Part shown: piece after piece, positions 35,853 through 50,531 of the stretch
How the letters are laid out: every line of letters starts with the position of its first letter
Position numbering within the stretch: position 1 is the first letter of the stretch
DNA from: Minisyncoccota bacterium
GTDB lineage: Bacteria; Patescibacteriota; Minisyncoccia; Phycocordibacterales; SBAW01
DNA: 64,000 nt
Direction: 5' to 3'
NCBI GenBank assembly: GCA_018060985.1
Contig: JAGOUZ010000002.1
Coordinates: 26,396-90,395, forward strand
Made by a program: the position numbers and the translations under genes
Notes under the pieces: model-generated
Told to the model about the DNA's origin: nothing
The model's database searches: none
The model's input: the letters and a program-made list of their open reading frames with translations, nothing else

Positions 35853-36287
35853 TCAGCACGAGAGCCAGTAATGAAACTCGACTGGCTCTCCGGTCGCGGA
35901 GCGGACCTTTTCCGGCCAGAAGCTTTCGTCCCTGGTGTGGGTGGTCACTCCTGCTCTGATCTCGCCAACAGAGTTGGCAACTTCGATCAGGCCATCAAAC
36001 TGCCATTTGATGATGCATTGTCCGCGGGGGTTAACCGTGACCCATGTCCTGTCCAGCCTTGCCACGCGCATCGTGGTTTCGGACTCGCCGCCAGGGGTAC
36101 GACTGACGGTACCGTGCCGAGAGTTTCTCGGCCCGCTCCAGTACCAGTTCTCCTTGATGTAGGAGTATCCGTATACGATGGGGATTGCCCCCAAGAAGAG
36201 CGCCAAGGCGTGCCACTTGTAGCTCGAGACCTTGTGCAGCAGCGCCATCGCGGGGCTGGTGATAGTGTGCGGCTGTATTCTGCTCAT
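35853..36287 (-). CDS. NfeD-like short membrane protein (OB-fold C-terminus)
   Basis: N-terminal TM, then beta-rich C-terminus with QFDGLIEVANSVGEIRAGV (compare NfeD FDGELWDAVSEEGIEKGTRV). Immediately downstream of an SPFH protein gene. GC-rich. Confidence 0.4.
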   Translation of the reverse strand: MSRIQPHTITSPAMALLHKVSSYKWHALALFLGAIPIVYGYSYIKENWYWSGPRNSRHGTVSRTPGGESETTMRVARLDRTWVTVNPRGQCIIKWQFDGLIEVANSVGEIRAGVTTHTRDESFWPEKVRSATGEPVEFHYWLSC

Positions 36288-36295
36288 GTCCTACC

Positions 36296-37381
36296 TCATG
36301 TGGTGGGAGTGGTTGGTTTACCGCCACCCTTGCGTGCGCGTGCTGTTTGCACTCCGCGTCCGGCATCGCCGGCGTTGCGTAGTGCGCCCATGAGCGCGGG
36401 AGCAAGAGCTTGGATAGCGTCGTCTCCTTGAAGTGAGAAAATCTGCTTGGAAACGCTCTCCTTGTTGAGGATCATGAGCATCTCAAGCGCCCGTTCCTTG
36501 GGCATCTCGAGCTTCGCGGCCAGTCCTTCTGCGTCATTCGCGATTACCTCGCGGATGACAGAGGCGGCGATCGCCTGTTCGTAGTCGTGGTCGAACTTGG
36601 GCGGACCGAGCGTGCTCAGTTCGACCCGAAGCCCGAAGCGCTCCTCCAGACTATTGCCGAGCGAGTCTAGAGCTCCCCTGATGGGGGCGCCGTTAACCTC
36701 CTCGCCGACAAATGATCGCCCAAGCGACTCCTGGAGTTCGTCGACAGTCGCTTTCTCCAGGATCTTGTCGAGTGACTTGGTCAGGATGGCTTCATTGATG
36801 GCGTTTTCCACCACCTCTGCAAAGCCATCCGTGATTGCCTTCTCCTCCGTCCGCACGTAGAGCGGAAGCAGAGGAAGGAATGGGCCGTATTGCACGGTCC
36901 ACTTGAAGGTGACGCCGACGCCTCCTTTCGGAGCCGCCGCAGTTCCGCCTTTGACGACGAAACGTGACTCGTGTTCGAGGCTGATCGCTCGCAGGCTGAT
37001 GTAGTCGTCCTGCCGAAACCCCTCCCAAGGGTATTTGATATGAAGGCCTGGCCCCAATACGTGGAGTGCTCCGCCGAATAAACTGGTGAGCAGCGCCCCG
37101 GTGAGCTTTGGCACATTCGCAACAAATAGTTTGACAGTGCCAAGGACGAGGAATAACCACACCCCGAGCATTGCAAGCTGGAAGTACGGGGTCACGTCCA
37201 GTCGAATCGGCGCCGTCAGAATGAGGGCTCCGATAAAGCTGAGGAAAGGGAAGAGGATGAACAGACAGAAGAGGTAGACCACCACTCTGCCCGGCGTCGT
37301 TCCCGATGTTCCTGTAACCGCCACACCGTAGCTGGCTGATATTTCTCGTATCTCGTCACCAGTCAGTTTACTGATAGCCAT
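36296..37381 (-). CDS. SPFH/band-7 (flotillin/stomatin-like) membrane protein
   Basis: Two N-terminal TM helices, then SPFH-like core (…VTFKWTVQYGP…FGLRVELSTLGPPKFDHDYEQAI…) and a C-terminal coiled-coil/Gly-rich tail. GC-rich relative to flanks. Confidence 0.5.
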   Translation of the reverse strand: MAISKLTGDEIREISASYGVAVTGTSGTTPGRVVVYLFCLFILFPFLSFIGALILTAPIRLDVTPYFQLAMLGVWLFLVLGTVKLFVANVPKLTGALLTSLFGGALHVLGPGLHIKYPWEGFRQDDYISLRAISLEHESRFVVKGGTAAAPKGGVGVTFKWTVQYGPFLPLLPLYVRTEEKAITDGFAEVVENAINEAILTKSLDKILEKATVDELQESLGRSFVGEEVNGAPIRGALDSLGNSLEERFGLRVELSTLGPPKFDHDYEQAIAASVIREVIANDAEGLAAKLEMPKERALEMLMILNKESVSKQIFSLQGDDAIQALAPALMGALRNAGDAGRGVQTARARKGGGKPTTPTT

Positions 37382-37536
37382 GTTGCTTCTCTCAAGGTTC
37401 AGGTATTTCTACGGCTCCAGTTCTGCGGTTGCAGAAAGGCCGTTATTCCACTTACTATTATAGCATACAAAATACCATTTTGTCAAGCAGAATAGCCTTA
37501 TCAAATAAGGCTAAAAACTGCTCTGTGCGTTACATG

Positions 37537-37618
37537 TGCTGGGGAGAGGACTCGAACCTCCAAGCCTTGCGGCACCAGTTCCTAAGACTGGCGCGTATAC
37601 CAATTCCGCCACCCCAGC
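37537..37618 (-). tRNA. tRNA-Leu (anticodon TAG)
   Basis: Reverse complement GCTGGGGTGGCGGAATTGGTA…CCAGT-CTTAGGA-ACTGG plus long variable arm. T-arm GGAGG-TTCGAGT-CCTCT. Confidence 0.8.
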
Positions 37619-37661
37619 AAAAGGCACCCATCCTGCCACATGGCAGATTTTGTGTCCTTTG

Positions 37662-37734
37662 TGCGCCCAGTAGGATTCGAACCTACGACCTTCTCCTTAA
37701 GAGGGAGCAGCTCTACCAACTGAGCTATGGGCGC
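37662..37734 (-). tRNA. tRNA-Lys (anticodon CTT)
   Basis: Reverse complement GCGCCCATAGCTCAGTTGGTAGAGC-T-GCTCC-CTCTTAA-GGAGA…GTAGG-TTCGAAT-CCTAC-TGGGCGC-A. Confidence 0.85.
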
Positions 37735-37871
37735 AAAGTGAGGAAGATAAGAAAGCCGCGCTTTCTTATCGCCCCGAACGTGCGTCCATATCAAGCCAAG
37801 TGCAGATATGGGCGCAATAACAACAAAATACAACAAAAATCGCCCGCCCACAATTACGCAGGGAATTTTTG

Positions 37872-37959
37872 TGCCGGGGGTGGGAATCGAACCCACACGA
37901 GATTTTAAAGCCTCCCAGGATTTTAAGTCCTGTATGTCTACCAATTCCATCACCCCGGC
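37872..37959 (-). tRNA. tRNA-Leu (anticodon TAA)
   Basis: Reverse complement GCCGGGGTGATGGAATTGGTAGACAT-ACAGGA-CTTAAAA-TCCTG plus long variable arm. T-arm GTGGG-TTCGATT-CCCAC. Confidence 0.8.
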
Positions 37960-37965
37960 ATCGGG

Positions 37966-38037
37966 AGGCCATGGCGGGAATCGCACCCGCGTATTCAGGA
38001 TTTGCAGTCCCGTGCCTTACTACTTGGCGACATGGCC
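37966..38037 (-). tRNA. tRNA-Cys (anticodon GCA)
   Basis: Reverse complement GGCCATGTCGCCAAGTAGTAAGGC-A-CGGGA-CTGCAAA-TCCTG…GCGGG-TGCGATT-CCCGC-CATGGCC-T (U73 discriminator, typical of Cys). Confidence 0.8.
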
Positions 38038-38066: not shown

Positions 38067-38378
38067 TTACGAAAGCTCGTCTAAACGCTGCCTGTTCTTT
38101 TCGCCCTTGTCGATAACAAACTCTACGCGAGGGAATCCGCTTTTAACCCGTTTCTTAAAAAAGTCGCCTAACTCGGTGCGGTTGCGGTTGGCAAAGCTCA
38201 GCGCATGTTCTTCTGCAGAGTCGGGGAGCACGGTGATGTAAATAATCCCGCGCTTATTGTCGTCGCTCAGCTCGGCGCGCGTTACGGTTATCAAAGACTC
38301 CCTCCCAGCTTCGCGCACCAAAAACTCCGCTGCAACCTCGCGCAATGCTTCCTGCATTCTTTCGTGTCGGTTATCCAT
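38067..38378 (-). CDS. rbfA: Ribosome-binding factor A
   Basis: 103 aa. KH-like RbfA pattern (…LITVTRAELSDDNKRGIIYITVL…). Located downstream of infB as usual. Confidence 0.85.
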   Translation of the reverse strand: MDNRHERMQEALREVAAEFLVREAGRESLITVTRAELSDDNKRGIIYITVLPDSAEEHALSFANRNRTELGDFFKKRVKSGFPRVEFVIDKGEKNRQRLDELS

Positions 38379-38384
38379 AAATTG

Positions 38385-39932
38385 TTATTTCATTACGACG
38401 GTAAAAATCTCGAGTTTGTCGTTTGCTGCCGGCTCACAGCTTGTTTTAACCTGCGCGCCAAACTCGGTACCCGCTTCTACCTCTTTTACCGGTTTCTTCT
38501 GAGACTGCAATGAAGTAATTTCGCCACGGCCCACTTCAAAGTCGCGGCGCATAATTTTTACTTCGGCACCCTGGGCAAGGGTACCTTCTTCAACGCGGCC
38601 GCCCAAGACCACCTTGCCTTTCTCGGTGCCAAATATCTTAAGTACGCGTGCCGAACCAATCTTTTCTTCAAAGCTTGCGCGAGGGCGGCGCTTTTCGGTC
38701 TCTATCTGTAGCCACTCCGCGAGTTTGTAAATAATATCAAATACGGCAATCTCTACGCCCTGGCGCTCTGCGAGGTCGCGTGCGGTCGACTCTACTTTTA
38801 CGTTAAAGCCAACCACGAGGCCCGGTGTCTTGCCGCCAATAGCAAAGCGCACATCGCTTTCAGTAATAGGTCCTACGCCGCGTGTCACCACGCGCACTTC
38901 TATTTGCTCGCTTTTAGGGAGTTTGTCGAGCTCGTGCATGACCGCATCGCCGGTGCCAGAAACATCGGTCTTAATAACCAAAGGCAGTATGACATGTTCT
39001 TTCTCTTCTACCGCTACTTCGCCCTCTTCAACCTTTGGTTTTTGTACAGGAGTATTTTTAGGTCGGGCTGCCATAGCTTCTGCGCGAGCATCGGCGGCAT
39101 CAGCTTCCGCCTCTTTTTTACTCTCAACGGTTTTAAAACGCATGCCCACGGTAGGGAGGACAGAGAATCCGACAATCTGCACAGGGCTTCCTGGCTTTGC
39201 TTCTTTAATCGGTTTGCCCAAAAAGTTTTCCATAATACGGACTGGAGCAAATGCCTCGCCAGATACCACGTATTCGCCCGAGAGTACGGTGCCATTTTCC
39301 ACAACGAGCGTTGCAGTGTTGCCGCGCTTGTTGTCTATGTGCGCTTCAATGATGACACCCTCGCCGGCAAGCGACAGGTCGGCAGAAAGGCCTTCAAGCT
39401 CTGCAGCAAGCAAAATAAGGTCCATGAGTTCGGGGATGCCTTCGCCGCTTTTACCCGAGACGGCTACCCACGGCACCTCACCGCCAAGGCCTTCCAAGTA
39501 AATGCTGTGTTCGAGCATAGTAGACTTCGCCTTCTCCAAATTCGCAGTGGGCTTGTCAATTTTTGTAAACGCAACGATGTAAGGGATTTTAACGCCCTCA
39601 ATAAGCTTGAGTGCCTCGACGGTTTGCGGCTTAACGCCGTCTTCTGAAGAGACAACCAAAATAGCAACATCGGCAACTTCAAGTCCGCGCGAGCGCATCG
39701 CTTTAAATGCCTCATGGCCAGGCGTGTCCAAAAACGTTATGGTGTGTTCTCCCGATGCGTTTTTGTGAACTGCCTCGTAGGCGGAAAGGTGCTGTGTAAT
39801 ACCACCCGCTTCACCGGCAACCACGTTGGCTTTGCGGATATAGTCGAGCAGGGTAGATTTGCCGTGGTCAATGTGTCCCACGATTGCAACAACAGGAGGG
39901 CGTGTGCCCTCTATGGCTGGAGAGGCGTTCAT
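38385..39932 (-). CDS. infB: Translation initiation factor IF-2 (short, lacks long N-terminal domains)
   Basis: G-domain [25 protein letters not shown]-terminal beta-barrel domains. 515 aa. Confidence 0.9.
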
Positions 39933-39992
39933 ATAGATATATAGAGTGGACGAAGGGGCGTGTAAGGGAGTATATACTTAAACTGCTTTTTT

Positions 39993-41204
39993 ATGAAGTT
40001 TTGGAAACTGGGAAAACGGAAGCGCATATACGCAGATGCAGCGGCAGCAACACCGCTTTCTTTGGGCGTGCAAAAAGAAATGTCGCGTTTACAGGCGCTC
40101 TATGGCAACCCAGGCGGGCTGCATAAAGACGCGGTAGCAGCAAAAAAAGAATTGGAGCGCGCACGTGCACGTGTGGCAAAAGCTATAGGTGCACATCCGG
40201 ACGAAATATTTTTTACCTCAGGCGGAACAGAGTCTAACAATCTTGCGATATTGGGTGCGCTGCGCCCGCTTTTGCGCGAGCAGGGCGAGTTAAGCGCGGT
40301 TACTACCTCAATAGAACATTTGTCGGTACTCGAGCCGCTCCGCATTCTTGAACATGATGGTTTGTATACGACTGAGCTAAAAGTAAGTGAGAGTGGAGAG
40401 GTGTCTACTAAAGACCTGCGCGAAACTATAAACGACGAGACGGTACTAGTGTCGGTGCAGATGATTAACAGTGAGATAGGCACCATTCAAAACATTCGCG
40501 AGATCGCGAAAGAAATTCGGCATGTAAGAAAACTTCGCAAAGAAGCTCCGCTCTACTTCCACTCAGACGCATCGCAGGCGCCGCTGTGGCTGCCGCTCAA
40601 TGTAGAGAAGCTTGGAGTCGACCTGCTTACGCTCGACGCTCAAAAGATGATGGGGCCAAAAGGTGCCAGTGTACTCTATATAAAGAGAGATATCGATGTT
40701 GAGCCGATACTCTGGGGCGGCGGGCAGGAGCGCGGGCTTCGCAGTGGAACAGAAAACGTGGTGATGGCAGGAGCGCTCGCGCAGGCGCTCGAAGAAGCGC
40801 AGGCTGGTGTTGATGCACGAGTGGCTCATGTAACTGCGCTTCGCGATAATCTAATTACAGAAATTCAAAAGCGTATTCCAAACGCAGAGCTTAATGGTGT
40901 AGCGGGGGATAGCCGCGTAGCTAACAATATAAATATTTCTATATCTGGCCTTGATGCACAGATGGCAGTCATAGCCCTCGATGCCGAGGGGGTGGCGGCC
41001 TCGACGCGCTCGGCGTGCAGCGGTGCCGACGAGGAACCCTCGTACGTTATTAAGGCTCTTGGTAAGTCAGATATTGCAGCAAAGTCTTCTATACGTATAA
41101 CCCTGCTCCCTGACGCATCTTCTACTGATATCCGCCGCATAACTGAGGCTCTGGTTGCAATAACGACACGCTATAGCCAAAAGTCAAATAATGTTGTAAA
41201 GTAG
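39993..41204 (+). CDS. Cysteine desulfurase / class V aminotransferase (NifS/IscS-like)
   Basis: PLP-lysine region HSDASQAPLWLPLNVEKLGVDLLTLDAQKMMGPKGASVLY. C-terminal active-site SACSGADEEPSYV. Confidence 0.85.
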   Translation: MKFWKLGKRKRIYADAAAATPLSLGVQKEMSRLQALYGNPGGLHKDAVAAKKELERARARVAKAIGAHPDEIFFTSGGTESNNLAILGALRPLLREQGELSAVTTSIEHLSVLEPLRILEHDGLYTTELKVSESGEVSTKDLRETINDETVLVSVQMINSEIGTIQNIREIAKEIRHVRKLRKEAPLYFHSDASQAPLWLPLNVEKLGVDLLTLDAQKMMGPKGASVLYIKRDIDVEPILWGGGQERGLRSGTENVVMAGALAQALEEAQAGVDARVAHVTALRDNLITEIQKRIPNAELNGVAGDSRVANNINISISGLDAQMAVIALDAEGVAASTRSACSGADEEPSYVIKALGKSDIAAKSSIRITLLPDASSTDIRRITEALVAITTRYSQKSNNVVK

Positions 41205-41292
41205 CAAATGGACATTCGGGCGGGGTTATATCGTCTGGAAGTTCTATTCAACCCAAGCCTAGCCTAGCTAGAAGAGAAGGAGACGTGTTCAC

Positions 41293-43131
41293 ATGTGTGG
41301 CATCGTAGCCATTATTGCCCCTAAGGGGGATATCGCTCCCGTGCTGCTCGACTGCATCAAGCGGCTCGAGTACCGCGGGTATGACAGTGCCGGCGTGTCC
41401 GTCGCCAACGGCGGCGACCTGCAGGTTCTGAAGGCGGTTGGCCCTGTGGCCAATCTCAAGAACCGGTTCGACACCTCGCCGGTTCATGGCAACCGCGGCA
41501 TCATCCACACCAGGTGGGCGACCCACGGTGAAGTGACCGAAGAGAACGCGCATCCGCACGTCTCGAACGACGGCACTATTTCCGTCGTGCACAACGGCAT
41601 CATCGAGAACCACGACATGCTTCGCCGTCGCCTGATGAGTGCGGGGTACGTGTTCCACTCGCAGACCGACACAGAGGTCATCCCGAACCTCATCGAGCTG
41701 AAGCTCCTCGAAGGGGCCAACTGCCTCGAAGACGCGGTTGCCAGTGCTGTCGAAGATCTCGACGGCGCCTACGCAATCGCGGTCGTCTCGTCGATGCATC
41801 CGGAAATCGTGATCGCAAGGCAGAGCAGCGACCTGTTTCTCGGCCTCAACGGCGGCACGCACTACGTCGCGTCCGACGACCTCGCGTTCGCCGGCTATGC
41901 TTCGCACACCGTCCCGATCAAGGACGGCGACATCCTGACCCTCAAGAACGACGGAACCTACCACTTCCGCGAACACGATGCAGCGCGCAAGCGCGACATC
42001 GAAGTGTTCGACGCCGATTCTACCAGCGTCGACAAGGGCACGTACGACTCCTTCATGCGGAAGGAGATCTACGACCAGCCGAACGCGCTCAAGCTCGCCA
42101 CTGCCGGCCGGATCACTCTGGACGGCGAGGTGGTGTTGGGCGGCATCCGCAACGCGGAGGAACGTCTCGCTTGCTCGCGCATGATCGAGTTCGTCGCGTG
42201 CGGCACGTCGCTCTACGCCTCGACGATCGGAGCGCAGATGATCGAAGGTCTTGCGCGGATACCTGCACGGGCCAGCCACGCCTCGGAGTTTCAGTATCGC
42301 GATCCGATTCTGAACTTCCACGACGCGGTCATCGCCGTTTCGCAGTCGGGCTCTACGGCCGACACGCTGAACGCCGCGCGCCTTGCCATGAAGGAAGGCG
42401 CGCTGACGCTCGGCATCAACAACCGGGTCGGGTCATCGCTTTCTCGCGAGACCGGCGCTGGTATCTACCTCCATGCGGGGTCGGAGATCGGCGTCGCATC
42501 CACCAAGGCTTTCACCGCGCAAGTTGCGGTGATGGCACTTCTTGCAGCTCGGCTTGCTACTCTTGCCGGCCAGGGCCATCAGCCTCGCGTTGCGCGGCTG
42601 GTGCGTGGACTCCGCGAACTTCCGGACAAAGTTGCTCTCGCACTCACGTGCGAACAGCAGGTCAAGGAGATCGCGCAGATCTACAAAGACGCGAAGAGCG
42701 TCTTCTGTCTCGGTCGGGGCTTTGCGGTGCCGCTCGCATACGAGGGCGCCCTGAAGCTGAAGGAGATCGGCCAGCTCAATGCAGAGGGGTATCCCGGCGG
42801 CGAGCTCAAGCACGGCCCACTGGCGCTCATCGAGCGGGGCGTGCCCGTCATCGCGGTGATCTGCAAGGGTGACGGACTCGAGGGGAAGATGATCTCCAAC
42901 CTCGAGGAAGTTCGCGCACGTGGCGGCGATGTTATCGTCATCACGAGTGGAATGGTCGCGCTTCCGGATGGTCTTGCAAAGCACGTCATCGTGCTTCCGC
43001 AGGTCCCGCCGGAACTGATCTCGGTCATCGGCGCGATCCCGTACCAGCTTCTCGCGTACCATGTGGGAGTGGCACAAGGGTTCGACGTCGACAAGCCGCG
43101 GAATCTCGCCAAGTCGGTGACGGTCGAGTAA
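41293..43131 (+). CDS. glmS: Glutamine--fructose-6-phosphate aminotransferase (isomerising)
   Basis: N-terminal MCGIVAII (Ntn Cys), two SIS domains, C-terminal …PLAYHVGVAQGFDVDKPRNLAKSVTVE. Strongly GC/GC3-enriched relative to neighbours. SD GAAGGAGA upstream. Confidence 0.95.
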   Translation: MCGIVAIIAPKGDIAPVLLDCIKRLEYRGYDSAGVSVANGGDLQVLKAVGPVANLKNRFDTSPVHGNRGIIHTRWATHGEVTEENAHPHVSNDGTISVVHNGIIENHDMLRRRLMSAGYVFHSQTDTEVIPNLIELKLLEGANCLEDAVASAVEDLDGAYAIAVVSSMHPEIVIARQSSDLFLGLNGGTHYVASDDLAFAGYASHTVPIKDGDILTLKNDGTYHFREHDAARKRDIEVFDADSTSVDKGTYDSFMRKEIYDQPNALKLATAGRITLDGEVVLGGIRNAEERLACSRMIEFVACGTSLYASTIGAQMIEGLARIPARASHASEFQYRDPILNFHDAVIAVSQSGSTADTLNAARLAMKEGALTLGINNRVGSSLSRETGAGIYLHAGSEIGVASTKAFTAQVAVMALLAARLATLAGQGHQPRVARLVRGLRELPDKVALALTCEQQVKEIAQIYKDAKSVFCLGRGFAVPLAYEGALKLKEIGQLNAEGYPGGELKHGPLALIERGVPVIAVICKGDGLEGKMISNLEEVRARGGDVIVITSGMVALPDGLAKHVIVLPQVPPELISVIGAIPYQLLAYHVGVAQGFDVDKPRNLAKSVTVE

Positions 43132-43157
43132 CACCGTCAAAAAATAGTGAATCAAAC

Positions 43158-43194
43158 TGCCCATCGCGCAAATGCGATGGGTTTTTCTTTTATT
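43158..43194 (+). terminator. Intrinsic terminator downstream of glmS
   Basis: CCCATCGCGC-aaat-GCGATGGG followed by TTTTTCTTTTATTTT. Confidence 0.65.
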
Positions 43195-43227
43195 TTGTGG
43201 TATAGTTCTTGTAACAGTCTTACTGGG

Positions 43228-44016
43228 ATGGATTTAGAAAAACTAACAAAACATCAAATCCTGTTATTGACGCTATTGGTGTCGTTTGTTACCTCCATCG
43301 CTACAGGGATTGTGACCGTCTCGCTCATGGACCAGGCGCCAGAAGGCGTCACTAAAATAATTAATCAGGTGGTTGAGCGTACGGTTGAAACCGTTGTTCC
43401 TTCTACACAAGGCGCTGCCGTAGCTACAGAAAAAACAGTTGTAGTTAAGCAGGACGAGCTGGTACCGCAATCTATCGCCACCGTACAAAAGAGTATTGTG
43501 CGCATTGTGGCTCGTGGTAGCGACCAGTTAATAGCGCGCGGCATCATAATCGACAGCAAAGGCACCACTATTACCGACGGCCCTGCGCTCGCTGCAGGAC
43601 AGGTGAATCAGTTTGAGGCTATTTTACCTTCTGGGGCTCGTGTACCGGCCAAGCCTCGCGGCGACCTCAAGTCAGAGATCGTTCAGGTAGACCTTACACT
43701 CGGGACTTCAACAGGGTTTGTGCCAGCCAAATTTGCAGACAGCGCCAAACTCACGCTTGGACAAACAGTGCTCCGCATTGGCGGCATCGGTTCCGACTCG
43801 GTGGGTGAGGGTGTCGTTGCGGCATTGCCTACCGATACTACTAAAGATGTCATCTATGCCAGCGTTTCCTCCGCAACACCGGGTTCAGTGCTCATCACGA
43901 TCTTCGGAGAAGTTATAGGTATGAATACGAGCACCCACGCCACAGATCAGAGTGCTTACAAGATCATATCTCTCCCTGCAGCTCCCACGGTAACAAATAC
44001 CACCCCCAATACGTAA
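43228..44016 (+). CDS. Membrane-anchored trypsin-like (S1C/HtrA-like) protease homolog, probably catalytically inactive
   Basis: N-terminal TM, then chymotrypsin-fold-like beta-rich domain. The position equivalent to GNSGGPL reads [19 protein letters not shown] (Ser absent). Start moved to Met MDLEKLT because the longer ORF overlaps the glmS terminator. Confidence 0.4.
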
Positions 44017-44048
44017 TAAGCAGTATACAAGTAGTAAGCAAAACGATT

Positions 44049-46757
<2,709 letters not shown>

Positions 46758-48296: not shown

Positions 48297-49415
48297 ATGA
48301 AGACGCTTCGTGCGTGGCTGCCTGTTTTTGTTGTACTCATACTTCTTGCTGCACCACTAACTGTTGATGCGCAGAGCTACTCACCTCTGGTGCAGTGCGG
48401 TGTAGACGATGGTGGTAATGGCCCCATAACGTGCGACCTCTGCGACCTAGGCAAGCTGATGCAAAACATCATCAACTTCCTCCTTGTGGGTATTGTGGTA
48501 CCTCTTGCGGCCGTTATGTTCGCCTATGCGGGTGTACTGTATTTTACCGGCGGCTCAAACCCTGGCCGCATTACGCGTGCACATAAAATATTTAAAAACG
48601 TACTTATTGGGTTTCTTATTGCCATTTCTGGCTGGCTGGTCGTCAATACTATTATGACGGTAGTGTTTAGTAAGAGTTTCTTTGATGGTGGTAAATGGTT
48701 TGAACTTCAGTGTGTAGAAACAATAAGGAATAAGTCCGATGGCGACGTTCGCCTTGCTGGAACTAATTTTAATGATCTGATCAATACTATTCTTCCTGAA
48801 GCAGAGGCTCCCGAGTATGTTCGGCCAGAGACTCCTCAGAATGTTGTTGGGTACGACTCTGCCGGTAACCCTCTGGTTTGTCCTGGAGGATATTCCTATA
48901 ACGCCGAGTTGAATGCGTGCTTCAAACCCGGTGGGGTTGGAGGTGGTAGCGAGAGCGGCGATGGAGGTGGGGCAGTAGGTGGAGGCGTAGATCCTGTGCC
49001 GGCAAACCCTGGAACGCCGGTCAGTCCAGGCCCCTTTGTTCCCGTACAAGCCGACTACACGTTTACGTTCAACAGCGGTATCAACAAACAGACTCCCCAC
49101 GCTTCTTTAAAGTTAACCTCCATGCTTAACTGCATGTCCAAAATTGTGCCCGGTAATGTGGGGCGCATCTCATCTATTTCTGACAGCATGATAGTAAATG
49201 GCACCAGAACTTGGGCGCAGTGCAAGGCGGGACAGTGTCAGCACGTCACCAACTCCTACCATTACGGCGGATCTAAGTGCGGTAACCAGTCATATGCAGT
49301 GGATTTTGGCGATGAAGAAAACTACCTCTCACTTCTCCAGGCGGCTCAGCAGTGCGATGGCCGCGCTACAAAAGAGAGCGACCATGTGCATGTACAAACG
49401 GGCACCTGCAATTAA
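48297..49415 (+). CDS. Fusion protein: signal peptide + TrbC/VirB2-like two-TM pilin-like module + Gly/Pro-rich linker + C-terminal Zn-peptidase-like domain (LAS superfamily, M23/M15-like)
   Basis: N-terminus TCDLCDLGKLMQNIINFLLVGIVVPLAAVMFAYAGVLYFTGGSNPGRITRAHKIFKNVLIGFLIAISGWLVVNTIMTVVF is homologous to the 34.4-35.8 kb pilin-like family. C-terminus has HYGG…AVDFGDE and DHVHVQ (H…D…HxH zinc-site pattern). Confidence 0.5.
   Translation: MKTLRAWLPVFVVLILLAAPLTVDAQSYSPLVQCGVDDGGNGPITCDLCDLGKLMQNIINFLLVGIVVPLAAVMFAYAGVLYFTGGSNPGRITRAHKIFKNVLIGFLIAISGWLVVNTIMTVVFSKSFFDGGKWFELQCVETIRNKSDGDVRLAGTNFNDLINTILPEAEAPEYVRPETPQNVVGYDSAGNPLVCPGGYSYNAELNACFKPGGVGGGSESGDGGGAVGGGVDPVPANPGTPVSPGPFVPVQADYTFTFNSGINKQTPHASLKLTSMLNCMSKIVPGNVGRISSISDSMIVNGTRTWAQCKAGQCQHVTNSYHYGGSKCGNQSYAVDFGDEENYLSLLQAAQQCDGRATKESDHVHVQTGTCN
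48432..48720 (+). repeat. Direct repeat copy 1 (~289 nt) = pilin-like N-terminal module; copy 2 at 49554..49842
   Basis: Long near-identical stretches by eye, for example GACCTAGGCAAGCTGATGCAAAACATCATCAACTTC and TTCGCCTATGCGGGTGTACTGTATTTTACCGGCGGCTCA in both copies. Confidence 0.8.
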
Positions 49416-49445
49416 TATGCAAAAACGAGTGCTAAAATACAGGCA

Positions 49446-50531
49446 ATGAGGAAGGTCCTTCAGGTTCTTTATGTTTGTGCAGGGTTAGCTCTGCTCCTTA
49501 TACCTGTTGCAGCATACGCACAGGGTCTTGTCCCATGCACCGGTGCTATGACCTGCGACATCTGTGACCTAGGCAAGCTGATGCAAAACATCATCAACTT
49601 CATGCTTGTGGGGATTGCCGTGCCCCTTGCTGCCCTTATGTTCGCCTATGCGGGTGTACTGTATTTTACCGGCGGCTCAGATCCTCATCGCATTGCACGC
49701 GCACGTAAGATATTTAAAAACGTCCTGACGGGCCTTCTCATCGCACTCTCTGCATGGCTCGTTGTTAACACCATTATGACGGTGGTGTTCAGTAAGGACT
49801 TTTTCACTGATAGCAAATGGTTTGAGTTGCAGTGTGTCTCCAACACAACCGCTACACCTGGCCGTCCTGGGCGTCTGATCAATACTACATTTGATGATCT
49901 TATTGGTGTCATTCTGCCGGAAGTAGACCCGCCTGAATATACACGCCCTCCAACTCCTGTTGTGGTTGGTACAAATTCAAATGGTGTACCCATAAGCTGT
50001 CCGTCTGGCGCAACCTACGATCAAAAAAACCACACCTGTGTTGGCTCAGCCGGGGAGGTTACCCAGCCAGTCCCTGTCCCTGCCATTACTCCTGGTCCAT
50101 TTCCGCCGCCAGTCACTCCCTCGGGCCCCATTAGTGCGGGATCTTGCGCTCCCAATCCTGGTGCGTTTGGTGCTAACGCCAATCTAATGTCCTGCATATG
50201 CGGTGCGGAGAGTGGCGGTATAGCCAGCCGGCCTAGCGGTTCAGATATTATGTACAACGACCCAGGTCGCAGAGCCTTTTCATGGGGTTTGTATCAAATT
50301 AATATTTCCGTCAACCAAATGATGTGTCCTGGCCAGCCAACCCTTAACTGCCCAGCTGCATTTTCTGGTAAAAATTATTCCGCTCGGGTTATAAACGAAA
50401 CGCTCTACGCTGCTTGTGTTGCTGCGGCAAAAAATCCTAGTTGCAACACTGCTTCAGCAGCGTATTTGCTCAACCATACGCCAAATGGTGCCAAAAACTG
50501 GAGTACCTATGGCAAGTGTGTAGGTCGTTAG
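49446..50531 (+). CDS. Fusion protein: signal peptide + TrbC/VirB2-like two-TM pilin-like module + Pro-rich linker + C-terminal SLT-type lytic transglycosylase domain
   Basis: N-terminal module about 85% nucleotide-identical to the upstream paralog. C-terminus CGAESGGIAS…AFSWGLYQINIS…AYLLNHTPNG matches SLT catalytic ES and GLMQ-type motifs. Confidence 0.5.
   Translation: MRKVLQVLYVCAGLALLLIPVAAYAQGLVPCTGAMTCDICDLGKLMQNIINFMLVGIAVPLAALMFAYAGVLYFTGGSDPHRIARARKIFKNVLTGLLIALSAWLVVNTIMTVVFSKDFFTDSKWFELQCVSNTTATPGRPGRLINTTFDDLIGVILPEVDPPEYTRPPTPVVVGTNSNGVPISCPSGATYDQKNHTCVGSAGEVTQPVPVPAITPGPFPPPVTPSGPISAGSCAPNPGAFGANANLMSCICGAESGGIASRPSGSDIMYNDPGRRAFSWGLYQINISVNQMMCPGQPTLNCPAAFSGKNYSARVINETLYAACVAAAKNPSCNTASAAYLLNHTPNGAKNWSTYGKCVGR
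49554..49842 (+). repeat. Direct repeat copy 2 of the pilin-like N-terminal module
   Basis: See copy 1. Equal length and same reading frame. Confidence 0.8.

What the first reader, a model, noticed from the sequence alone, without database searches (positions are those of the whole stretch)
41210..43200. glmS is compositionally foreign (high GC/GC3) -- probable recent horizontal acquisition, possibly from a high-GC host
glmS codons are overwhelmingly G/C-ending (…GGC ATC GTA GCC … CTC GAC TGC ATC AAG CGG CTC GAG TAC CGC…). The flanking cysteine desulfurase and protease-like genes have balanced composition, and the shift begins and ends at the gene boundaries (SD GAAGGAGA, own terminator). The high GC also generates long spurious antisense ORFs. 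For an organism with reduced biosynthesis, acquiring the entry enzyme of UDP-GlcNAc synthesis from a high-GC donor is biologically meaningful. Actinobacteria are the known hosts of Saccharibacteria.
Basis: partly seen in the sequence, partly recalled or inferred. Interest (0 to 1): 0.55.

Follow-up and report, generated by a model that had tools for sequence, protein, structure and literature searches.

The report
GC-rich glmS allele in Paceibacteria slot
The sugar-amine synthase gene glmS really is far more GC-rich than its neighbours, but it belongs to this bacterial lineage's own glmS family at a fixed chromosomal slot, so it is most likely a variant copy imported from a GC-richer relative and not a gene captured from an actinobacterial host.

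Summary
glmS (41293-43131, +) has GC 0.625 and GC3 0.79, against a window gene mean GC3 of 0.54 (SD 0.07). The jump starts and ends at the CDS ends.

The interpretation mostly fails. The organism is a Paceibacterota/Parcubacteria bacterium (Adlerbacteria/Kaiserbacteria-like), not Saccharibacteria. Actinomycetota GlmS are only 39-43% identical and fall elsewhere in the tree. The window's GlmS nests with 100% bootstrap in a small clade. All members but one occupy the same slot (cysteine desulfurase | glmS | trypsin-like protein | ClpB) in related genomes. At that slot, more distant relatives carry compositionally native glmS (GC3 0.58-0.63), and 39 relatives carry none, including the sister lineage.

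The high-GC3 allele is shared by three diverged lineages (flank dS 0.6-1.3), so it is not recent. It is losing GC (104 S>W versus 55 W>S synonymous changes). A recombination tract spans the left junction.

Best reading (confidence about 0.5): one glmS cassette entered by homologous recombination from an unsampled, GC-richer member of the same radiation and is slowly ameliorating. An in-situ force on synonymous sites is not excluded. This is ordinary accessory-gene flux and only modestly interesting.

The parts
38067..39932 (-). RbfA (38067-38378) and IF-2 (38385-39932), the left part of the conserved backbone. Host composition (IF-2 GC3 0.52).
   Evidence: ORFs. Same order in relatives. GC3.
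39993..41204 (+). Class-V aminotransferase / NifS-IscS-like cysteine desulfurase, the left flank of the slot (GC3 0.48). A recombination breakpoint relative to L065 lies near codon 300 (about 40890).
   Evidence: Pfam PF00266 E=7e-56. NCBIfam NifS/IscS matches fall below the equivalog cut-offs. Synonymous divergence from L065 drops from 0.48 (codons 1-310) to 0.27 (311-end), Fisher p=0.002.
41205..41292 (+). Upstream intergenic region of the glmS cassette (GC about 0.48), with the Shine-Dalgarno GAAGGAGA at 41276-41283.
   Evidence: Sequence. 66/88 identical to L065 with the SD block conserved, and essentially unalignable to L067.
41293..43131 (+). glmS, glutamine--fructose-6-phosphate transaminase, 612 aa, intact. 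GC 0.625 and GC3 0.79, the compositional outlier.
   Evidence: TIGR01135 equivalog 682 bits against a cut-off of 418. End-to-end alignment to E. coli GlmS 4AMV with the catalytic motifs conserved. Composition.
43159..43192 (+). Intrinsic terminator of glmS: a 10-bp stem (6 GC pairs) followed by a T-run.
   Evidence: The hairpin is kept in L065 and L070 through compensatory changes (CATCGC/GCGATG versus CACCGC/GCGGTG), and L067 also has a hairpin plus T-run there.
43198..43206 (+). Extended -10-like motif TGGTATAGT, a candidate promoter that restarts transcription of the downstream genes after the cassette.
   Evidence: Read from the sequence. The counterparts are TGGTATAGT in L065, TGGTACAAT in L070 and TGCTATAAT in L067. 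Function is inferred and not tested. The consensus scan did not list it, because it has no -35 partner.
43228..44016 (+). Right flank of the slot: a 262-aa membrane-anchored trypsin-like (HtrA-like, weak match) protein, GC3 about 0.49. The first 80 aa are 97-100% conserved in close relatives.
   Evidence: Pfam Trypsin_2 E=6e-5, below the cut-off. NCBIfam HtrA match is weak. Conservation. Found in nearly all related loci.
44049..46757 (+). ClpB chaperone, the backbone anchor used to sample the lineage (GC3 0.56).
41248..43164 (-). Long antisense ORFs (41248-42321, 357 aa; 42433-43164, 243 aa), by-products of the high GC3 of glmS.
   Evidence: GC by codon position is 0.81/0.42/0.62 and 0.71/0.41/0.72. 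The stop-free length is not conserved among orthologues.

Best explanation
Model: glmS is an accessory gene in this Paceibacterota radiation. It occupies one fixed slot between the cysteine desulfurase gene and a trypsin-like protein gene, upstream of clpB. In the ancestor of the window's clade (window, L065, L066/L070), a glmS cassette entered this slot by homologous recombination through the conserved flanking genes. The cassette comprises a ribosome-binding site, the gene, a terminator and a restart promoter. It either filled an empty slot or replaced a resident copy. The donor was an unsampled member of the same glmS clade, that is, a related bacterium with a much more GC-biased genome. 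Later recombination with host-type flanks trimmed any imported flank sequence down to the cassette ends. The gene has since been drifting slowly back toward host composition.

Shown: the composition jump and its limits; the nesting of the protein in the lineage's own clade; the conserved slot; the patchy presence; the net GC loss; a recombination tract across the left junction.

Inferred: the direction and timing of the import, the identity of the donor, and the trimming of the flanks.
For: 1. Clade-specific anomaly. glmS minus flank GC3 is +0.19 to +0.25 in window, L065, L066 and L070. It is only +0.02, +0.01 and -0.03 in the other slot carriers L067, L100 and L091.
2. The GlmS tree puts all slot carriers plus P0041 in one clade (bootstrap 100). 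The window clade, L067 and P0005 form an inner clade (bootstrap 100). Both are far from Actinomycetota and from the main CPR GlmS group. A profile of that clade finds only six protein clusters at 987-1111 bits, and then drops to 813 bits.
3. The same gene order holds in every close GlmS relative.
4. The sister lineage L071 (backbone bootstrap 100) has an empty slot. So do 38 other loci, with no glmS remnant. The slot holds other cargo in some lineages.
5. Polarised synonymous changes within the clade are 104 S>W against 55 W>S, with ancestral GC3 about 0.81. The gene is not at equilibrium and is losing GC.
6. All codon classes are shifted toward GC (AAG 0.9, TTC 0.8, CAG 0.9). This is the signature of genome-wide GC pressure, not of translational selection.
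7. Host GC3 in this radiation ranges from 0.24 to 0.80, so GC3-rich relatives exist.
8. Between window and L065, synonymous divergence falls from 0.42-0.57 to 0.20-0.34 across the last 100 codons of the desulfurase and the first half of glmS (p=0.002). This is a direct trace of homologous exchange here.
9. The terminator-plus-promoter layout after glmS is shared with L067.
Against: - No donor is sampled. Nothing between 59% and 83% identity exists in 5.8 billion proteins.
- The sampled GC3-rich relatives have empty slots. Their codon habits (AAA 0.5, TTT 0.54, ATA 0.33) do not match the glmS allele.
- Codon-table likelihoods do not separate relatives from high-GC phyla.
- The stem branch shows no GC-directed amino-acid replacement (30 up, 33 down) and no rate acceleration. 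That is odd for long residence in a GC-rich genome.
- No imported flank tail is visible, so secondary trimming has to be assumed.
- glmS loses GC at about half the per-site rate of its flanks and regains it at about twice the rate. The implied equilibrium is about 0.69-0.73, not the host's 0.54. The control is confounded by a different and near-saturated outgroup.
- The trees are neighbour-joining only, and the backbone tree is poorly resolved outside a few nodes.
Confidence: 0.5

Rival explanations
1. In-situ rise. glmS was inherited vertically in its slot. A force acting only on its synonymous sites raised GC3 in the window clade's ancestor and still partly holds it up. Candidates are selection on codon or mRNA properties, or GC-biased gene conversion at a recombination-prone slot.
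For: - The protein is clock-like. The window clade, L067 and P0005 are mutually 56-60% identical, with no acceleration and no GC-directed amino-acid change on the stem.
- GlmS divergence tracks that of the flanks. Against L067: GlmS 59%, desulfurase 64%, trypsin-like protein 60%.
- The GlmS and backbone trees are broadly congruent.
- The jump coincides exactly with the CDS.
- Per-site S>W is 0.17 in glmS against 0.32 in the flanks, and W>S is 0.46 against 0.21. The implied equilibrium is 0.69-0.73, above the host's 0.54 (p=2e-4).
Against: - To my knowledge, no known mechanism gives +0.25 GC3 to one gene.
- Net S>W flux shows the state is not being maintained.
- G-ending as well as C-ending codons rise, unlike translational selection.
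- Other presumably well-expressed host genes (S1, IF-2, ClpB, GyrA) have GC3 of 0.52-0.63.
- Biased conversion should also affect the adjacent gene ends, which are GC3-poor.
- glmS in the same slot of L067, L091 and L100 shows no such effect.
Confidence: 0.2
2. Outside donor. The allele came directly from a high-GC bacterium outside the CPR, possibly the physical host of these cells, as the first reader proposed in general form.
For: - The codon habits of the allele (AAG 0.9, TTC 0.8, ATC 0.88, almost no A-ending codons) resemble Thermoleophilia, Chloroflexota or Actinomycetota glmS more than the sampled GC3-rich relatives.
- The slot clade as a whole is not the main CPR GlmS type.
Against: - No non-CPR sequence falls in or near the clade among 5.8 billion proteins.
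- The nearest sequences are slot-resident copies in relatives.
- Actinomycetota are 39-43% identical.
- Integration at exactly the lineage's slot, with the lineage's terminator/promoter layout and no integrase, transposase or repeat nearby, needs flank homology that an outside donor lacks.
Confidence: 0.13
3. Retained ancestral composition. The whole slot clade descends from one old transfer from a high-GC donor. The window clade simply has not ameliorated, while its cousins have.
For: - GC at codon positions 1 and 2 is high for the whole slot clade (0.52-0.56, above the neutrality line).
- The L067 and P0005 branches show AT-directed amino-acid replacements (64 versus 40; 62 versus 44).
Against: - Synonymous sites between the window clade and L067 are saturated (pS 0.71-0.81), so passive retention of GC3 0.8 over that time is not credible.
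- The hosts have similar GC3 (0.54 versus 0.55).
Confidence: 0.04
4. Assembly or binning chimera. A high-GC fragment was mis-joined into a CPR contig.
For: None beyond the composition jump itself.
Against: Four independent assemblies show the same junctions: the NCBI MAG contig of 123 kb, two Logan runs (SRR31968663, SRR6448213) and a JGI metagenome. The flanking intergenic sequences are conserved among them.
Confidence: 0.01

Closest known systems
Atypical-composition genes and their amelioration (Lawrence and Ochman model; my own knowledge, not retrieved here)
   Same: A single gene with a GC3 far from the genome's, sharp limits, patchy distribution, and a net flux of synonymous changes back toward the host composition.
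   Different: The protein tree does not point to a foreign lineage. The gene nests in the recipient lineage's own clade at a conserved position. The decay looks slower than that of the flanks.
Accessory-gene hot spots between conserved core genes, filled and emptied by homologous recombination of the flanks (described for many bacteria; my own knowledge)
   Same: One junction is tight and empty in 31 loci, holds glmS in a few, and holds unrelated small genes in 8 others. No mobile-element genes are present. There is a recombination tract across one flank.
   Different: It is seen here in an uncultured Paceibacterota radiation. The cargo is a core-metabolism gene that differs in composition from its own orthologues in the same slot.
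Escherichia coli GlmS (PDB 4AMV, 1JXA, 2J6H)
   Same: Full-length alignment 1-612 to 1-609 at 491 bits. The N-terminal Cys and the CGTS, SQSG-TADT, EGALKLKE, GELKHGPL and LAKSVTVE motifs are conserved.
   Different: There is no sign of the regulatory RNAs known for glmS in other bacteria. No glmS ribozyme or any other Rfam family apart from tRNA occurs in the window.
GC-biased gene conversion in bacteria (Lassalle et al. 2015; my own knowledge)
   Same: It would raise GC3 in a recombination-prone region and slow S>W fixation. That matches the rate asymmetry.
   Different: Reported effects are a few percent, not 25 points. The adjacent gene ends are GC3-poor.

Membership tests
GlmS, glutamine--fructose-6-phosphate transaminase (TIGR01135 equivalog) | Score above the curated equivalog cut-off over the full length | tested here: met
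   681.7 bits against a cut-off of 418.05, residues 2-612 on profile positions 1-607.
GlmS, glutamine--fructose-6-phosphate transaminase (TIGR01135 equivalog) | N-terminal nucleophile Cys directly after the initiator Met (class-II glutaminase domain) | tested here: met
   The protein starts MCGIV, aligned to MCGIV of E. coli GlmS. Cys2 is invariant in the clade alignment.
GlmS, glutamine--fructose-6-phosphate transaminase (TIGR01135 equivalog) | Isomerase (two SIS) domain with its conserved sugar-phosphate and catalytic motifs and the C-terminal KSVTVE tail | tested here: met
   Pfam SIS PF01380 is precomputed for the identical protein. CGTS, SQSGSTADT, EGALKLKE, GELKHGPL and LAKSVTVE align to 4AMV. 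The assignment of catalytic roles to these motifs rests on my own knowledge.
GlmS, glutamine--fructose-6-phosphate transaminase (TIGR01135 equivalog) | Enzymatic activity | not testable with these tools
   It needs an assay or complementation of a glmS mutant.
Horizontally acquired gene from another phylum | Composition unlike the resident genome | tested here: met
   GC3 0.79 against 0.54 +/- 0.07.
Horizontally acquired gene from another phylum | Protein phylogeny places it inside or next to a foreign lineage | tested here: not met
   It nests (bootstrap 100) with slot-resident copies of related Paceibacterota. No outsider lies in the clade.
Horizontally acquired gene from another phylum | Absent from close relatives at the same place | tested here: met
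   The sister L071 and 38 other loci lack it. However, L067, the P0005 contig, L091, L095 and L100 have it there.
Horizontally acquired gene from another phylum | Mobile-element hallmarks at the borders (integrase, transposase, repeats, tRNA target) | tested here: not met
   The neighbours are the cysteine desulfurase and the trypsin-like protein. The intergenic regions are 88 and 96 bp. The nearest tRNA is 3.2 kb away, beyond IF-2. No dedicated repeat search was run on the borders.
Host-to-symbiont transfer from Actinobacteria to Saccharibacteria | The recipient is a Saccharibacterium | tested here: not met
   ClpB relatives at 82-92% identity are named Adlerbacteria, Kaiserbacteria, Paceibacterota or Parcubacteria. 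The identical GlmS is named Candidatus Pacebacteria.
Host-to-symbiont transfer from Actinobacteria to Saccharibacteria | The nearest homologues are actinobacterial | tested here: not met
   Actinomycetota GlmS are 39-43% identical and lie in a separate part of the tree.
glmS ribozyme-controlled glmS | glmS ribozyme (an Rfam family) in the 5' leader | tested here: not met
   Only tRNAs reach the Rfam gathering scores in the window. The leader is 88 bp.

The most novel reading that the evidence does not exclude
The high GC3 arose and is partly held in place within the resident gene. A fixation bias favouring G/C at synonymous sites of this one gene would do it, whether through selection on its mRNA or codons or through GC-biased conversion at a recombination hot spot. 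This would be a single-gene compositional island with no foreign donor. The clock-like protein, the exact CDS limits, and the halved S>W and doubled W>S rates relative to the flanks all leave this open.
Probability: 0.18. Interest if true: 0.6.

Novelty: new member of a known kind. Interest (0 to 1): 0.3.

Why it matters
The case shows that a sharp compositional island need not mean capture from another phylum. Here the protein tree, the gene order and a survey of 80 related loci point to exchange inside one Paceibacterota radiation whose members range from GC3 0.24 to 0.80. glmS is the entry step to UDP-GlcNAc, and the window also encodes MurJ, a muramoyl-alanine amidase and FtsZ/FtsA. It turns out to be an optional gene at a fixed slot in these reduced genomes, so relatives with an empty slot must obtain amino sugars another way. 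For genome scans, the practical lesson is that a GC3 outlier should be checked against the same locus in relatives before a donor is named. The unexplained slow decay of GC3 is a small testable lead on synonymous-site forces in uncultured bacteria.

Tried and rejected
- glmS ribozyme or another leader RNA: no Rfam hit.
- Assembly chimera: rejected by four independent assemblies.
- Antisense ORFs as real genes: rejected on their codon-position GC pattern and lack of conserved length.
- glmS remnants in empty slots (evidence for loss): none at E<=10.
- Neutrality plot of GC12 against GC3. The window lies on the line and the whole slot clade is GC12-rich. The plot does not discriminate.
- Codon-table likelihoods to name a donor. 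The host table fits worst (-1.67). GC3-rich relatives (-1.48), Thermoleophilia (-1.46), Chloroflexota (-1.50) and Actinomycetota (-1.52) are nearly tied.
- Search for a donor with a clade profile. Nothing lies between the six known clusters and the Bacteroidota-type plateau.
- P0041, the only clade member outside the slot. It sits in a 48% GC contig with native glmS GC3 of 0.51, so it gives no donor hint.
- Control polarisation on the flanks. It is confounded by the near-saturated, GC3-richer outgroup L071.
- Local low-GC3 patches inside glmS (window codons ~381-440, L065 codons ~300-360). They suggest mosaic exchange but are not conclusive.
- DNA of the P0005 contig could not be fetched.
- Literature searches found no report of this case.
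Full report
OBSERVATION

The window averages 51.4% GC. The stretch 41001-43000 reaches 58-63%. The ORF 41293-43131 (+) has GC 0.625, with GC1 0.664, GC2 0.423 and GC3 0.788. The 62 long ORFs of the window average GC3 0.540 (SD 0.074), and none exceeds 0.76. Against 54 flanking ORFs the excess is +0.25.

In 100-bp bins GC is 0.46-0.48 just before the start codon, 0.58-0.66 through the gene, and 0.45 then 0.36 just after the stop. The adjacent ends of the neighbouring genes are GC3-poor.

The Shine-Dalgarno GAAGGAGA (41276-41283) is present, and so is an intrinsic terminator at 43159-43192. The long antisense ORFs are by-products. Their GC peaks at codon position 1, and their open length is not conserved among orthologues.

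IDENTITY OF THE GENE AND THE ORGANISM

The protein is a complete GlmS. It scores 682 bits on TIGR01135 against a cut-off of 418. It aligns end to end with E. coli GlmS, with the N-terminal Cys and the isomerase motifs conserved. No glmS ribozyme or other RNA family is present.

The identical protein is recorded from an NCBI MAG named Candidatus Pacebacteria, on a 123-kb contig. The neighbouring ClpB has hundreds of relatives at 82-92% identity. Where named, they are Adlerbacteria, Kaiserbacteria, Paceibacterota or Parcubacteria. The organism is therefore not a Saccharibacterium, and the argument from actinobacterial hosts has no footing.

The window also encodes MurJ, a muramoyl-alanine amidase with a peptidoglycan-binding domain, FtsZ and FtsA. 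A supply of glucosamine-6-phosphate is therefore relevant to this cell.

WHERE THE GENE SITS IN THE LINEAGE

Only four GlmS clusters are closer than 50% identity: 85%, 83%, 59% and 55%. After them comes a plateau of about 47% in Bacteroidota and Rhodothermota. CPR and Actinomycetota lie at 39-45%. All four close relatives lie in the same gene order as the window: RbfA, IF-2 | cysteine desulfurase | glmS | trypsin-like protein | ClpB.

I then fetched 80 loci anchored on ClpB, from 97% down to 67% ClpB identity, and mapped the five backbone genes on them. The backbone is conserved throughout. glmS lies between the desulfurase and the trypsin-like gene only in these loci:
- the window, L065, L066 and L070
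- L067-L069
- the P0005 contig
- L091, L095 and L100

In 39 loci the slot has no glmS. In 31 of these the desulfurase stop and the next gene's start are separated by -80 to +121 bp. In the other 8 there are 440-690 bp holding unrelated small ORFs, such as a superoxide-dismutase-like one in L117 and L122. No glmS remnant is detectable.

On a backbone tree the window clade is sister to L071, which has an empty slot (bootstrap 100). L091 is nested among empty-slot sisters (bootstrap 100). L100 is basal.

PHYLOGENY

A neighbour-joining tree of 74 GlmS sequences puts all slot carriers plus P0041 in one clade (bootstrap 100). The window clade, L067 and P0005 form an inner clade (bootstrap 100). Actinomycetota, Chloroflexota, Proteobacteria, Bacteroidota and the main CPR GlmS group all lie elsewhere.

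A profile of the clade recovers only six protein clusters at 987-1111 bits in 5.8 billion proteins. The next hit scores 813 bits. P0041 lies in another context, in a 48% GC contig with native composition.

WHICH COPIES ARE ANOMALOUS

GC3 of glmS minus flanks is +0.19 to +0.25 in the window, L065, L066 and L070. It is +0.02 in L067, +0.01 in L100 and -0.03 in L091. The anomaly belongs to one subclade of carriers, not to glmS in this lineage in general.

AGE

L066 and L070 are nearly identical. Among the window, L065 and L070, flanking genes differ by dS 0.64-1.34 and glmS by 0.53-0.70. The dN/dS of glmS is 0.14-0.18, so the gene is under purifying selection. The high-GC3 allele therefore predates a substantial radiation and is not recent.

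IS IT DECAYING?

I polarised third-position synonymous changes in the three-taxon set. The result is 104 S>W against 55 W>S. The ancestral GC3 is about 0.81, and the implied equilibrium is about 0.69. Both the host equilibrium of 0.54 (p=2e-4) and stationarity are rejected. The gene is losing GC, as an import would, but slowly.

A control on the flanks gives per-site S>W 0.32 and W>S 0.21, against 0.17 and 0.46 for glmS. That control had to use L071 as outgroup, which is GC3-richer and near saturation. The contrast is therefore only suggestive, and I record it as unexplained. The control also hints that the window clade as a whole is drifting AT-ward relative to L071.

PROTEIN-LEVEL SIGNALS

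The window clade, L067 and P0005 are mutually 56-60% identical. There is no rate acceleration toward the outgroups. The stem of the high-GC3 clade shows 30 GC-raising against 33 GC-lowering replacements. GC at codon positions 1 and 2 (0.544) lies between L067 (0.522) and L091/L100 (0.556-0.563). The anomaly is purely synonymous.

WHAT KIND OF PRESSURE MADE IT?

All codon classes are shifted toward GC, G-ending as well as C-ending:

| Measure | window glmS | host genes |
|---|---|---|
| Lys AAG fraction | 0.86-0.92 | 0.43 |
| Gln CAG fraction | 0.80-0.94 | 0.63 |
| Phe TTC fraction | 0.79-0.83 | 0.28 |
| A-ending share at four-fold sites | 0.07-0.10 | 0.20 |

The pattern is that of general GC pressure, not translational selection. 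Other presumably well-expressed host genes also show no such shift.

Host GC3 in this radiation spans 0.24-0.80. Several relatives at 82-84% ClpB identity have backbone GC3 of 0.75-0.80, so GC3-rich relatives exist. However, the sampled ones have empty slots and keep AAA, TTT and ATA codons that the glmS allele lacks. Codon-table likelihoods reject only the host table. The donor was therefore more strongly GC-biased than any relative sampled here.

RECOMBINATION AT THE LOCUS

Between the window and L065, synonymous third-position divergence runs as follows:

| Segment | Synonymous third-position divergence |
|---|---|
| IF-2 and desulfurase codons 1-300 | 0.42-0.57 |
| desulfurase codons 301-400 | 0.22-0.34 |
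| glmS codons 1-306 | 0.20-0.28 |
| glmS, remainder | 0.33-0.38 |
| trypsin-like gene | 0.40-0.45 |

The 5' versus 3' contrast within the desulfurase gives Fisher p=0.002. This is a direct trace of homologous exchange across the left junction.

The terminator hairpin after glmS is conserved through compensatory changes in the window, L065 and L070. It is followed by an extended -10-like motif that L067 also has. The cassette layout is thus shared within the lineage. The first 80 residues of the trypsin-like protein and the N-terminus of ClpB are 97-100% conserved among close relatives. They provide good recombination substrates.

SYNTHESIS

The most economical account has four steps:
1. glmS is an optional gene at a recombination-accessible slot in this radiation.
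2. The window clade's ancestor received a glmS cassette from an unsampled, GC-richer carrier of the same glmS clade.
3. Later exchange of host-type flanks trimmed the import to the cassette ends.
4. The gene has since been decaying slowly.

I give this account 0.5. The main rival, at 0.2, is an in-situ force on synonymous sites. It fits the clock-like protein, the exact CDS limits and the rate asymmetry. It lacks a known mechanism of this size and conflicts with the net GC loss. It also conflicts with the native composition of glmS in the same slot elsewhere. A non-CPR high-GC donor (0.13) fits the codon habits but not the tree or the slot. Passive retention from an old transfer (0.04) is contradicted by saturated synonymous sites. 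A chimera (0.01) is excluded by four independent assemblies.

VERDICT

- Observation: confirmed.
- Interpretation: partly supported. A foreign allele is plausible. The proposed donor, the proposed recipient, the recency and the claim of a function new to the lineage are not supported.
- Novelty: a new instance of a known kind of event.
- Interest: 0.3.

Noticed in passing
window 35853-37381 (-), beside tRNAs at 37536-38037: A second, milder GC-rich patch (GC about 0.58-0.60). It holds an SPFH/Band_7 gene (361 aa, GC3 0.67) and a 144-aa ORF (GC3 0.76, no Pfam match). It lies directly next to a cluster of four tRNA genes (Leu-TAG, Lys-CTT, Leu-TAA, Cys-GCA). The Band_7 protein is only 24-32% identical to counterparts in L090 and L078. 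It may be another accessory or imported segment.
   Followed up: partly
L117:7250-7950, L122:4060-4800, L094:6780-7420, L105:4440-5120, L142:7540-8030, L091:5520-6360: The desulfurase | trypsin-like junction is a variable slot in the radiation. It holds a ~200-aa superoxide-dismutase-like ORF in L117 and L122 (66% nucleotide identity to each other), small membrane-protein ORFs in L094, L105 and upstream of glmS in L091, and another ORF in L142.
   Followed up: partly
window 39993-43131 versus L065:876-4014: A recombination tract. Synonymous divergence is about half the flank level from desulfurase codon ~300 to about glmS codon 306.
   Followed up: yes
window 38385-46757 versus L070 and L071: Host flanking genes of the window clade show net S>W synonymous flux (241 versus 97) and lower GC3 than the sister L071 (ClpB 0.56-0.59 versus 0.67). 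This suggests that the whole clade is drifting AT-ward. The outgroup is near saturation, so the estimate is biased.
   Followed up: partly
slot-clade GlmS (window 41293-43131; L067, L091, L100, L150): This lineage's GlmS clade is not the main CPR GlmS type. Its profile scores Bacteroidota/Rhodothermota-type proteins next (813 bits against 987 or more). The NJ tree places it apart from Saccharibacteria, Harrisonbacteria and Parcubacteria GlmS. An old transfer into the radiation, or a deep paralogous line, is possible.
   Followed up: partly
window 48297-50531 (+): Two adjacent genes (372 and 361 aa) with type IV secretion system pilin domains (PF18895). A similar gene lies near the slot on the P0005 contig.
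   Followed up: no
window 43147-43227: The longest-ORF start of the downstream gene (GTG 43147) runs through the glmS terminator. The real start is the ATG at 43228 (MDLEKLTK), which matches the starts seen in relatives.
   Followed up: yes
window 42433-42640 (glmS codons ~381-440) and L065 glmS codons ~300-360: Lineage-specific patches inside glmS where GC3 falls to 0.55-0.62. In L065 the patch also has raised synonymous divergence (0.47-0.63) despite amino-acid identity of 90% or more. This could reflect mosaic exchange with lower-GC3 alleles or uneven decay.
   Followed up: partly
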